A stretch of 63,015 bases of DNA, the filler included, from Collodictyon triciliatum (lineage: Eukaryota): assembly GCA_043381765.1 (NCBI GenBank). It is 5 parts of 5 records of this genome, joined end to end, with 100 filler letters (N's around TTAATTAATTAA, not from the genome) between each part and the next. Parts side by side here need not be neighbours in the genome. Positions count along the whole stretch, not along the records: positions 24,441 to 46,967 come from JBHJMP010002237.1; 4 more parts are not named here. One strand, 5' to 3'. Under the pieces are notes generated by a model. The model had not been told where the DNA came from, ran no database searches, and worked only from the letters and a program-made list of their open reading frames with translations. The position numbers and the translations under genes were made by a program. Of this stretch, positions 37,064-37,699 are shown one piece after another; position 1 is the stretch's first letter, and the number at the start of each line of letters is the position of its first letter.

Positions 37064-37554
37064 GGGGCCCTTTCGACAGACGATGAGTCAGTTCATCTAC
37101 TCCCTCAGCTATATCACGCTCCATGAGTTTCTTTGTATGCCGGTATGTGACTTTGGTGGCTCTTCCTGCGCTCGAAGGACTTCACCCGGTTCTGTTGCTG
37201 GCGAGAGACAGCTTCAACCTTCTGTGCGCTTGACTGGTTCCTCTTGTGGCCACAATTTAACCCTGCAGAAGACAACAACGAAGTCAGCGCGAAAGAACAG
37301 GTGAGGGGCTGAGACAGAAAAGGTGGTTAAGGTTTTACCCTGCCATCGCGGGTTGTTTTCTCGTCACCTTTTGTATTATCATGAATCAATTGGCCGTCCC
37401 AGTGGTCTGTGGGAGGCGCCTGAGTGTGTTGTCAGGCTCTCTTCAGCCTTCCCTACACACTTGGTTTATCTTCTGTCGACATCGAATGGCTCCGAGCCGA
37501 GTTCGCAGCCGTGCTGCCGACGAGGAACTATTGTCGCCATTTTATGTTTAATTA

Positions 37555-37674
37555 GAAGGAGCATAGCAATCTTTCGATTGGTAAACCTGGTGTACTAGTA
37601 TCCAAGGTCTCACCACTATTTTTTCGCTATGACCGTGTAGTGGTGAAGGCTGCCAGGAAAGACCCGACAGCCTT
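37555..37674 (-). ncRNA. Candidate Fanzor omega-RNA scaffold (four hairpins + pseudoknot)
   Basis: Immediately 3' of the Fanzor remnant on the same strand. Stems at 37646-37674 (two G.U pairs only on the minus strand), 37610-37646, 37585-37608 and a CAATC-GAAA-GATTG hairpin at 37567-37580. Loop CATAG is complementary to the terminal CTATG. Confidence 0.6.
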
Positions 37675-37699
37675 TTTTTTTTTTTTTTAGAGGAAGGTG

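What the first reader, a model, noticed from the sequence alone, without database searches (positions are those of the whole stretch)
37530..37680. Intact-looking omega-RNA scaffold with pseudoknot downstream of the dead Fanzor
Seen on the minus strand, back to back: AAGGCTGTCGGG-tcttt-CCTGGCAGCCTT (12 bp with two G.U, which would be A.C on the plus strand); TCACCACTA-loop-TAGTGGTGA; ACCTTGG..TACTAGTA..CCAGGT; CAATC-GAAA-GATTG (GNRA); then CTATG, complementary to CATAG in the second loop. Known: TnpB/Fanzor guide RNAs come from the element's 3' end, carry a pseudoknot next to the guide, and take the guide from flanking DNA. Inference: the scaffold ends about 37550-37560 and the guide comes from the flank about 0.5 kb upstream of the PDCD2L ATG. 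The structure is preserved while the ORF decayed, so it may be used in trans.
Basis: partly seen in the sequence, partly recalled or inferred. Interest (0 to 1): 0.85.

Follow-up and report, generated by a model that had tools for sequence, protein, structure and literature searches.

The report
Guide-RNA module of a dead Fanzor
A cluster of four RNA hairpins sits exactly where a broken Fanzor1 transposon nuclease gene should carry its guide-RNA scaffold, so it is most likely that scaffold left behind as a relic, and nothing yet shows that it is still used.

Summary
On the minus strand, 37674-37567 folds into four back-to-back hairpins (161 nt: -43.6 kcal/mol, z -4.8, 0 of 200 shuffles as good; plus strand z -1.7). 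It ranks 3rd of 4066 GC-corrected 120-nt windows.

Directly upstream on the same strand lies a dead Fanzor1 gene. It has four in-frame stops, a frameshift, a 45-nt retroposon insertion and RuvC-III D->G, and it lacks the first ~190 residues.

The hairpins occupy the place of a Fanzor omega-RNA:
- They end 212 nt after the RuvC-III motif; 112 giant-virus relatives end a covarying 3' RNA structure at 203-322 nt (median 225).
- Two intact relatives read their last ~20 codons through hairpin 1 while keeping 11-12 of its 12 pairs possible.
- Related copies in four public runs cover the element down to bin 37528-37584 and nothing beyond.

Against it:
- No Rfam match and no match to the giant-virus RNA model.
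- No nucleotide covariation for this clade and no expression data.
- The 5-nt "pseudoknot" arises in 23% of shuffles, and the solved SpuFz1 omega-RNA has no pseudoknot.
- Preservation beyond neutral decay is only hinted (P about 0.03-0.06, post hoc).

Loci with an omega-RNA but no Fanzor gene ("ghost" loci) are already published. Verdict: new member of a known kind, moderate interest.

The parts
37646..37674 (-). Hairpin 1: 12-bp stem (37674-37663 with 37657-37646), 5-nt loop, two G.U pairs. In intact relatives it lies inside the last ~20 codons of the Fanzor ORF.
   Evidence: The tails of P0002 and P0069 allow 11 and 12 of the 12 pairs, against 0 of 400 random tails reaching 11.
37611..37645 (-). 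Hairpin 2: 8-bp stem with a 19-nt loop. The loop holds CATAG (37631-37627).
   Evidence: One variant next to CATAG (37626, G>A on the plus strand) is seen in all 8 related contigs that cover it in X1, X3 and X4.
37583..37610 (-). Hairpin 3: core stem 37608-37602 with 37590-37585, one bulge, 11-nt loop containing CTAG (37598-37595). The MFE fold extends it by two pairs.
37567..37580 (-). Hairpin 4: 5-bp stem with a GAAA tetraloop.
37562..37566 (-). CTATG, complementary to the H2 loop CATAG. A candidate pseudoknot and the likely last bases of the scaffold.
   Evidence: Present, but at chance level: 23% of shuffles, or 4% under the strict test.
37540..37561 (-). Flank that would supply the guide if the RNA is made (inferred). 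The boundary is known only to within 37528-37584.
   Evidence: Related contigs in 4 of 4 runs give zero depth over 37300-37527. Three of 4 runs give low depth in bin 37528-37584.
37757..39055 (-). Decayed Fanzor1 ORF, matching residues 193-607 of the 648-aa relative P0002. It has four in-frame stops, a frameshift near 37840 and no N-terminal ~190 residues.
   Evidence: 55% identity to P0002 at E 2e-116. Family profile against SpuFz1 8gkh at E 1.1e-56.
37766..37768 (-). Codon GGC (Gly) where the RuvC-III catalytic Asp stands in relatives (TRD.NS becomes TRGFNS).
   Evidence: Asp is present in all 80 viral loci scanned and in P0002, P0015 and P0069.
38904..38948 (-). 45-nt poly(A)-tailed retroposon tail inserted in the ORF. 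It is flanked by a 17-bp target-site duplication (38887-38903 and 38949-38965).
   Evidence: Contigs in X1, X2 and X3 join 38886 to 38949 without it. Related copies lie at about 56268, 56700 and 59086.
37673..37718 (-). Two A runs (37718-37705 and 37688-37673) between the RuvC-III region and H1. They stand where relatives have Lys-rich codons.

Best explanation
The hairpin cluster at 37674-37562 (minus strand) is the right-end, omega-RNA-encoding module of a degenerate Fanzor1 transposon copy.

In intact members of the same clade, the last ~20 codons of the nuclease gene run through hairpin 1 and into hairpin 2. The transcript of this region would fold into about four stem-loops (roughly 110 nt of scaffold) that the nuclease binds. 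The 15-20 nt just beyond the element end (from about 37561 downwards) would serve as the guide.

In this copy the nuclease is dead: stops, a frameshift, a retroposon insertion, loss of the RuvC-III Asp and a missing N-terminus. The scaffold is therefore most likely a relic that has not yet decayed. It could act only if it is transcribed and loaded onto an intact paralogue.

Shown: the structure, its strand bias, the dead Fanzor1, the positional and length match to relatives, and the approximate homology boundary. Inferred: that it is an omega-RNA, where the guide starts, and any present activity.
For: 1. The structure is real and strand-specific: minus strand z -4.8 against plus strand z -1.7, and rank 3 of 4066 windows. 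Two G.U pairs in H1 would be A.C mismatches on the other strand.

2. It lies on the same strand directly 3' of a Fanzor1 remnant.

3. The length matches. H4/CTATG ends 212 nt after the first base of the RuvC-III motif. In 112 of 118 distinct giant-virus and metagenome relatives, a conserved 3' block ends 203-322 nt after it, median 225.

4. In those relatives the block is a covarying RNA structure: 58 of 61 loci are hit by the model, 97% of cells are paired against at most 54% when slid, and 24 of 29 pairs show double changes. The caveat is that this alignment was fitted to the model.

5. The protein tails of intact clade members P0002 and P0069 differ from the window at 6 and 5 of 10 residues. 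They can still encode 11 and 12 of the 12 H1 pairs, including an A-U to C-G double change. None of 400 random tails reaches 11.

6. Related copies in 4 of 4 public runs cover the ORF and the hairpins but give zero depth over 37300-37527.

7. Published Fanzor1 omega-RNAs sit at the same place. The GtFz1 omega-RNA overlaps 17 C-terminal codons (passage). GtFz1 has a 150-nt omega-RNA with four stem-loops, in which SL2 contacts SL4 (section 5).
Against: - No Rfam family matches. The best hits at the site are noise (CrcZ at 17.3 bits against a threshold of 95).
- The sequence profile and the covariance model of the giant-virus relatives' RNA do not recognise the window. nhmmer gives no hit at the site. 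cmsearch with filters off gives 5.8 bits, E 1.6, ranking 8th of 17 noise hits.
- An alignment anchored on the coding sequence shows no convincing homology past the ORF.
- No nucleotide sequence of the window's own clade could be fetched, so there is no true covariation test. The H1 argument rests on back-translation.
- The boundary comes from 57-nt bins of summed contig depth.
- Expression is unknown.
- The hairpins were picked because they look intact, so the P of about 0.03-0.06 for preservation is post hoc.
Confidence: 0.7

Rival explanations
1. The scaffold is a live 'ghost' omega-RNA. It is kept by selection after the nuclease died, transcribed on its own or from read-through, loaded in trans onto an intact Fanzor1 paralogue, and directs cleavage of sequences matching the flank at about 37561-37540.
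For: None of the 31 stem pairs is broken, where about 3-4 breaks are expected from the ORF's decay (P 0.03-0.06). Run X1 holds many related contigs (249 laid, 33 of them at 99% identity or more), so a multi-copy family exists that could include intact genes. In S. punctatus, 134 loci keep the omega-RNA region without a Fanzor gene, and four such omega-RNAs worked with SpuFz1 in human cells (passages).
Against: There are no expression data, because no listed holder is on record as RNA. No intact paralogue was seen: the genome is not held and the best protein match in 5.8 billion is only 55-63% identical. The preservation statistic is weak and post hoc. Poly-A expansions lie right at the 5' edge of the scaffold, and a retroposon has inserted in the same copy, both of which point to neglect.
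Confidence: 0.15
2. The hairpins are a DNA-level transposon terminus rather than an RNA. An example is a Helitron-type 3' end: a hairpin, then about 12 nt, then CTAG at 37598-37595, followed by T. Hairpins 3b and 4 would then belong to the host flank.
For: CTAG lies 12 nt after the H2 stem and is followed by T. That Fanzor1 genes have been reported inside several transposon superfamilies, including Helitrons, is recalled from Bao and Jurka 2013, which was not read here.
Against: Three of 4 runs still have depth in bin 37528-37584, so related copies continue at least 11 nt past CTAG, and one X1 contig has 30 nt laid up to 37612. The fold is much better on the minus strand as RNA with G.U pairs. 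None of the relatives shows a CTRR end; 112 of 118 end in a GGT[GA]TAA motif inside a covarying RNA helix. H2 has a 19-nt loop, unlike the tight GC-rich Helitron hairpins (recalled).
Confidence: 0.05
3. The structure is unrelated to guide-RNA function. It could be chance structure, a transcription-termination or 3'-end-processing signal of the former gene (giant-virus genes use hairpin signals; recalled), or an unrelated small element.
For: No known RNA family and no relatives' model recognises it. On the plus strand, H1 followed by T16 resembles a terminator, and the L20-leader noise hit reflects this.
Against: Four adjacent hairpins rank 3rd of 4066 windows. H1 is continuous with the ORF of intact relatives, so it is not a separate insertion. 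A single termination hairpin does not explain four stems over 110 nt ending at the homology boundary.
Confidence: 0.1

Closest known systems
Fanzor1 omega-RNAs (SpuFz1, GtFz1, PpFz1; Saito et al. 2023 PMC10432273, Xu et al. 2024 PMC11423790)
   Same: Both are encoded on the coding strand at the 3' end of a Fanzor1 gene and reach the element's right end. They can overlap the last codons (17 aa in GtFz1, about 20 aa here by inference). The scaffold is a multi-stem-loop; GtFz1 has four stem-loops in 150 nt with an SL2-SL4 contact.
   Different: There is no detectable sequence or model similarity to any available omega-RNA. The nuclease here is dead. Expression, protein binding and guide use are untested. 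The proposed pseudoknot is not a known Fanzor1 feature, since SpuFz1 lacks one.
'Ghost' Spu-1 loci of Spizellomyces punctatus (omega-RNA region without a Fanzor gene)
   Same: An omega-RNA-type right end without a working nuclease gene in cis. Published ghost omega-RNAs function with SpuFz1 supplied in trans.
   Different: Ghost loci are a conserved family of 134 short elements with both inverted repeats. Here there is a single pseudogenised full-type copy whose 5' part is missing, and no evidence of a family of such orphans or of use.
3' structured RNA of giant-virus Fanzor1 genes
   Same: The protein family is the same (38-47% identity to P0002). The RNA block starts in the ORF tail and ends a similar distance from RuvC-III: 203-322 nt, median 225, against 212 nt here.
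   Different: The viral RNA has conserved sequence blocks in its middle and at its 3' end and a terminal GGT[GA]TAA motif, none of which is present in the window. The viral model scores the window at noise level.
TnpB (ISDra2) omega-RNA / reRNA
   Same: Right-end-derived guide RNA that overlaps the 3' end of the nuclease gene, with the guide taken from the flank (passage; the rest recalled).
   Different: The TnpB RNA has a defined pseudoknot; here the 5-nt candidate is at chance level. The protein here is Fanzor1, not TnpB.

Membership tests
Fanzor1 omega-RNA | Encoded on the nuclease's strand at or overlapping the 3' end of the ORF and running to the element's right end | tested here: met
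   The hairpins start 100 nt and end 212 nt after the RuvC-III motif on the same strand. The ORFs of intact relatives run through H1. Relatives' conserved 3' block ends at 203-322 nt, median 225.
Fanzor1 omega-RNA | Scaffold conserved among copies, followed by an abrupt loss of conservation where the guide or flank starts | tested here: inconclusive
   Depth of related contigs falls to zero below 37528 in 4 of 4 runs. Three of 4 runs have low depth in bin 37528-37584. The bins are 57 nt wide and no sequences are visible.
Fanzor1 omega-RNA | Stems supported by compensatory changes among homologues | tested here: inconclusive
   Only H1 could be examined, and only through back-translated protein tails: 11 of 12 and 12 of 12 pairs are possible, with one double change. 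No nucleotide sequences of the clade could be obtained.
Fanzor1 omega-RNA | Similarity to a described or related omega-RNA model | tested here: not met
   Rfam gives nothing. The nhmmer profile of 45 viral sequences gives no hit at the site. Covariance model R1 gives 5.8 bits, E 1.6. Xu et al. say that everything beyond SL1 varies freely among Fz1 omega-RNAs, so this failure weighs little.
Fanzor1 omega-RNA | Transcribed as a small RNA and bound by the Fanzor protein | not testable with these tools
   No listed run is on record as RNA. The laid runs are contigs only.
Fanzor1 nuclease (the gene upstream) | Homology to Fanzor1 over the REC/WED/RuvC/TNB domains | tested here: met
   55% identity to P0002 at E 2e-116. 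The family profile matches SpuFz1 8gkh at E 1.1e-56, PpFz1 at 2.8e-54 and GtFz1 at 1.4e-44.
Fanzor1 nuclease (the gene upstream) | Intact ORF with the RuvC catalytic residues | tested here: not met
   Four in-frame stops, a frameshift, a 45-nt insertion, RuvC-III Asp changed to Gly, and residues 1-192 absent. It is a pseudogene.
Helitron 3' terminus | Copies end at CTRR about 10-12 nt after a subterminal hairpin | tested here: not met
   CTAG is present 12 nt after H2. However, related copies continue at least 11 nt past it in 3 of 4 runs, and relatives end in a different motif. The resolution is coarse.
TnpB/Cas12-type guide-RNA pseudoknot | Conserved long-range pairing next to the guide | tested here: inconclusive
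   A 5-nt complement exists, but 23% of shuffles do as well, or 4% under the strict test. No covariation data are available. SpuFz1 lacks a pseudoknot.

The most novel reading that the evidence does not exclude
The scaffold outlived its nuclease because it is still used. On this reading it is an orphan omega-RNA of a so far undescribed Fanzor1 scaffold type (four stem-loops plus a loop-to-tail pseudoknot). It would be loaded in trans by an intact paralogue and would mark the promoter-proximal region upstream of the PDCD2L-like gene.
Probability: 0.12. Interest if true: 0.6.

Novelty: new member of a known kind. Interest (0 to 1): 0.35.

Why it matters
If the reading is right, the locus adds a Fanzor1 clade whose guide-RNA scaffold shows no detectable similarity to that of its giant-virus relatives. 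So far that clade is known only from a few metagenome proteins (P0002, P0015, P0069). Together with an intact relative, the scaffold could be tried as a compact editor.

It would also be one more case of an omega-RNA region surviving its nuclease, which bears on whether such orphans are used in trans. Neither point is new in principle. Fanzor omega-RNAs at the right end and ghost loci without the gene were described in 2023, and nothing here shows activity.

Tried and rejected
- **Whole-genome search for copies:** no genome is held for this window.
- **Self-comparison of the window:** no second copy of the hairpins or of the Fanzor gene.
- **Rfam at E up to 10:** only noise.
- **ARAGORN:** no tRNA or tmRNA in the window.
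- **Closer relatives' DNA:** P0002 alone and a clade-only alignment found nothing in viral contigs. The clade-only alignment also found nothing in genome contigs.
- **Sequencing runs:** no RNA holder is listed. All 8 rows hold only 5-7% of the sampled words. The four runs laid are contigs, so nothing can be said about transcription, ends or strand.
- **Viral RNA models against the window:** the profile and the covariance model do not recognise the window's hairpins. An alignment anchored on the RuvC-III codons gave no credible homology past the ORF.
- **RNAalifold on a mixed 45-sequence viral alignment:** it recovered only one helix, because two subgroups were misaligned. A subgroup alignment was used instead.
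- **Pfam:** it does not name the Fanzor pieces. The best result is Cas12f1-like TNB at E 0.026, below the cut-off.
- **Host lineage:** a search with the PDCD2L-like ORF found nothing at E 1e-5.
- **Inverted repeat in the viral relatives:** the reverse complement of the right-end motif is absent upstream in 128 of 144 loci.
- **Supplementary files:** those of Saito et al. and Xu et al. (locus lists, omega-RNA sequences, Table S3) were not seen. They might hold an omega-RNA comparable with this one.

Full report
**Observation**

On the minus strand four hairpins follow one another without gaps.
- H1: 37674-37663 with 37657-37646. 12 bp, loop TCTTT, two G.U pairs.
- H2: 37645-37638 with 37618-37611. 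8 bp, 19-nt loop.
- H3: 37608-37602 with 37590-37585. 6 bp plus a bulge, with CTAG in the loop.
- H4: 37580-37576 with 37571-37567. 5 bp, GAAA loop.

CTATG (37566-37562) follows H4 and is complementary to CATAG (37631-37627) in the H2 loop.

RNAfold reproduces H1-H4. It gives -43.6 kcal/mol for 161 nt, z -4.80, and 0 of 200 dinucleotide shuffles fold as well. The plus strand gives z -1.73, with 12 of 200 shuffles as good. In a scan of all 4066 N-free 120-nt windows of the 63-kb window (both strands, energies corrected for GC), 37561-37680(-) ranks 3rd. Only an AT-rich repeat at 1-150 ranks higher.

The hairpin cluster is therefore real, strand-specific and unusual. The pseudoknot is not: 23% of 20000 shuffles of the loops and the 12-nt tail give a complement of 5 nt or more. 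The figure is 4% if the complement must start right after H4.

**What lies upstream**

The minus strand from 39055 to 37757 encodes a Fanzor remnant.
- A read-through with X at the stops finds 67 proteins. The best is the 648-aa P0002 (55% identity, E 2e-116). The rest are about 34-45% identical, mostly about 620-aa proteins.
- A profile of 20 of them matches the solved Fanzor1 proteins: SpuFz1 8gkh at E 1.1e-56 over nearly the full length, PpFz1 at 2.8e-54 and GtFz1 at 1.4e-44.
- Pfam in the copy at hand does not name the pieces.

The copy is dead.
- It has four in-frame stops and a frameshift near 37840.
- The RuvC-III motif reads TRGFNS where all 80 viral loci scanned, and also P0002, P0015 and P0069, have TRD.NS.
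- Only residues 193-607 of P0002 find a counterpart.
- A 45-nt poly(A)-tailed retroposon tail with a 17-bp target-site duplication sits at 38904-38948. Contigs of three runs join across it.

**Does the hairpin cluster belong to the element?**

Four lines of evidence say it does.

1. Position and length. H1 begins 100 nt after the first base of the RuvC-III motif, and CTATG ends 212 nt after it. Of 118 distinct 3' tails from 160 giant-virus and metagenome loci, 112 carry a conserved block ending in GGT[GA]TAA. That block ends 203-322 nt after the same motif, median 225, and the sequences diverge beyond it.

2. The viral block is a structured RNA. A covariance model built from 26 sequences hits 58 of 61 loci. 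On that alignment 97.0% of cells are paired, against 43-54% when the partners are slid. Double changes occur in 24 of 29 pairs, and 0 of 500 shuffles reach any of the five measures. The caveat is that the alignment was fitted to the model.

3. Continuity with the ORF.
   - The intact clade members end ...KKQAVGYSSTALTVTHKRMRM (P0002) and ...KKQAVGFHSAACMVTHRNM (P0069). The window in the +1 frame reads KKKAVGSFLAAFTTTRS.
   - In the H1 register, back-translation allows 11 of 12 pairs for P0002 and 12 of 12 for P0069. These tails differ from the window at 6 and 5 of 10 residues.
   - The closing pair changes from A-U in the window to C-G in P0069. None of 400 random tails reaches 11 pairs.
   - This is an inference from protein sequences, and the sequences are related, so it shows compatibility rather than independent origin.

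4. The boundary. Contigs of four public runs, related at 80-99% identity (249, 14, 44 and 67 laid), cover the ORF and the hairpins. All four give zero depth over 37300-37527. Three of the four give low depth in bin 37528-37584. Homology among copies therefore ends within that bin, which fits an end near 37562. It also runs at least 11 nt past the CTAG at 37595 that a Helitron-type end would require.

**What does not fit, or is missing**

- Rfam gives only noise.
- The viral RNA profile and model do not recognise the window. nhmmer gives no hit at the site, and cmsearch with filters off gives 5.8 bits, E 1.6, which is 8th of 17 noise hits.
- An alignment anchored on the RuvC-III codons shows no credible homology past the ORF. 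Xu et al. 2024 (section 5 read) report that Fz1 omega-RNAs range from 75 to 150 nt and that only SL1 is conserved, so this failure weighs little. It does leave the identification resting on position and context.
- DNA of the window's own clade could not be fetched. P0002 alone and a clade-only alignment found nothing in viral contigs, and the clade-only alignment found nothing in genome contigs. The one metagenome scan was filled by more distant relatives, and no genome is held.
- No listed run is on record as RNA.

**Is the scaffold preserved beyond neutral decay?**

Four stops arose in 373 sense codons. Taken as a clock, that implies about 0.06-0.10 substitutions per site. At that rate 3.0-3.9 of the 31 stem pairs should be broken, and none is. 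P is 0.02-0.05 at the point estimate and 0.03-0.06 when averaged over the uncertainty. The test is post hoc, because the region was chosen for looking intact. Some of the stops also lie in a badly aligned stretch. I treat the result as a hint only.

**Comparison with what is known**

- Saito et al. 2023 (passages read) place Fanzor omega-RNAs at the right end of the element.
- They report that the GtFz1 omega-RNA overlaps 17 C-terminal codons.
- They describe 134 ghost loci in S. punctatus that keep the omega-RNA region without the gene, and show that four ghost omega-RNAs work with SpuFz1.
- They also state that the SpuFz1 omega-RNA lacks the pseudoknot typical of TnpB and Cas12.
- Xu et al. 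describe four stem-loops in the GtFz1 omega-RNA with an SL2-SL4 contact. That is an architectural parallel to H1-H4 with a possible H2-loop-to-tail contact.

**Verdict**

The most likely reading (0.7) is the omega-RNA-encoding right end of a pseudogenised Fanzor1 copy, probably a relic. Use as a live trans-acting ghost omega-RNA is possible (0.15) but untested. A Helitron or other DNA-level terminus (0.05), and chance or an unrelated signal (0.1), are less likely. This is a new member of a known kind, and interest is moderate.

Noticed in passing
L001-L160 (for example L010:4764-4904, L001:4830-4952): Giant-virus and metagenome Fanzor1 genes carry a roughly 140-nt covarying RNA structure that overlaps the ORF tail. 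It ends in a GGT[GA]TAA motif, after which the loci diverge. 58 of 61 loci are hit; 97% of cells are paired against at most 54% when slid; 24 of 29 pairs show double changes. It looks like the omega-RNA of this viral Fanzor1 group. I did not check whether it has been published.
   Followed up: partly
window 38887-38965; also about 56268-56312, 56700-56739 and 59086-59127: A 45-nt poly(A)-tailed retroposon tail with a 17-bp target-site duplication interrupts the Fanzor ORF. Three more copies lie in the window, one with an 18-bp duplication. Its bin has very high depth in run X1 (3533), so it is a high-copy element, probably a 5'-truncated non-LTR retrotransposon end.
   Followed up: partly
window 12122-12221, 24341-24440, 46968-47067, 59169-59268: Four N blocks of identical layout: 44 N, 12 bases, 44 N. 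They look like masking of a repeated feature rather than assembly gaps.
   Followed up: no
window 1-150 (minus strand): The strongest GC-corrected fold in the window (-39.1 kcal/mol at 15% GC). It is probably an AT-rich palindromic repeat.
   Followed up: no
window 18001-20000: A GC-rich island (51-55% GC) in a window that is otherwise 26-47% GC. GC skew changes sign around 20 kb.
   Followed up: no
window 35331-36348 (-) and 40355-42137 (-): The flanking host genes are a PDCD2/PDCD2L-like gene (PDCD2_C at E 1.2e-4, below the cut-off) and a class II aminoacyl-tRNA synthetase core split by introns (tRNA-synt_2b at E 2e-16). The PDCD2L-like ORF found no relative among 5.8 billion proteins at E 1e-5.
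   Followed up: partly
window 37626: All 8 related contigs that cover this base in runs X1, X3 and X4 read A on the plus strand where the window has G. The base lies next to the CATAG of the H2 loop, so the window copy carries a private change there.
   Followed up: no
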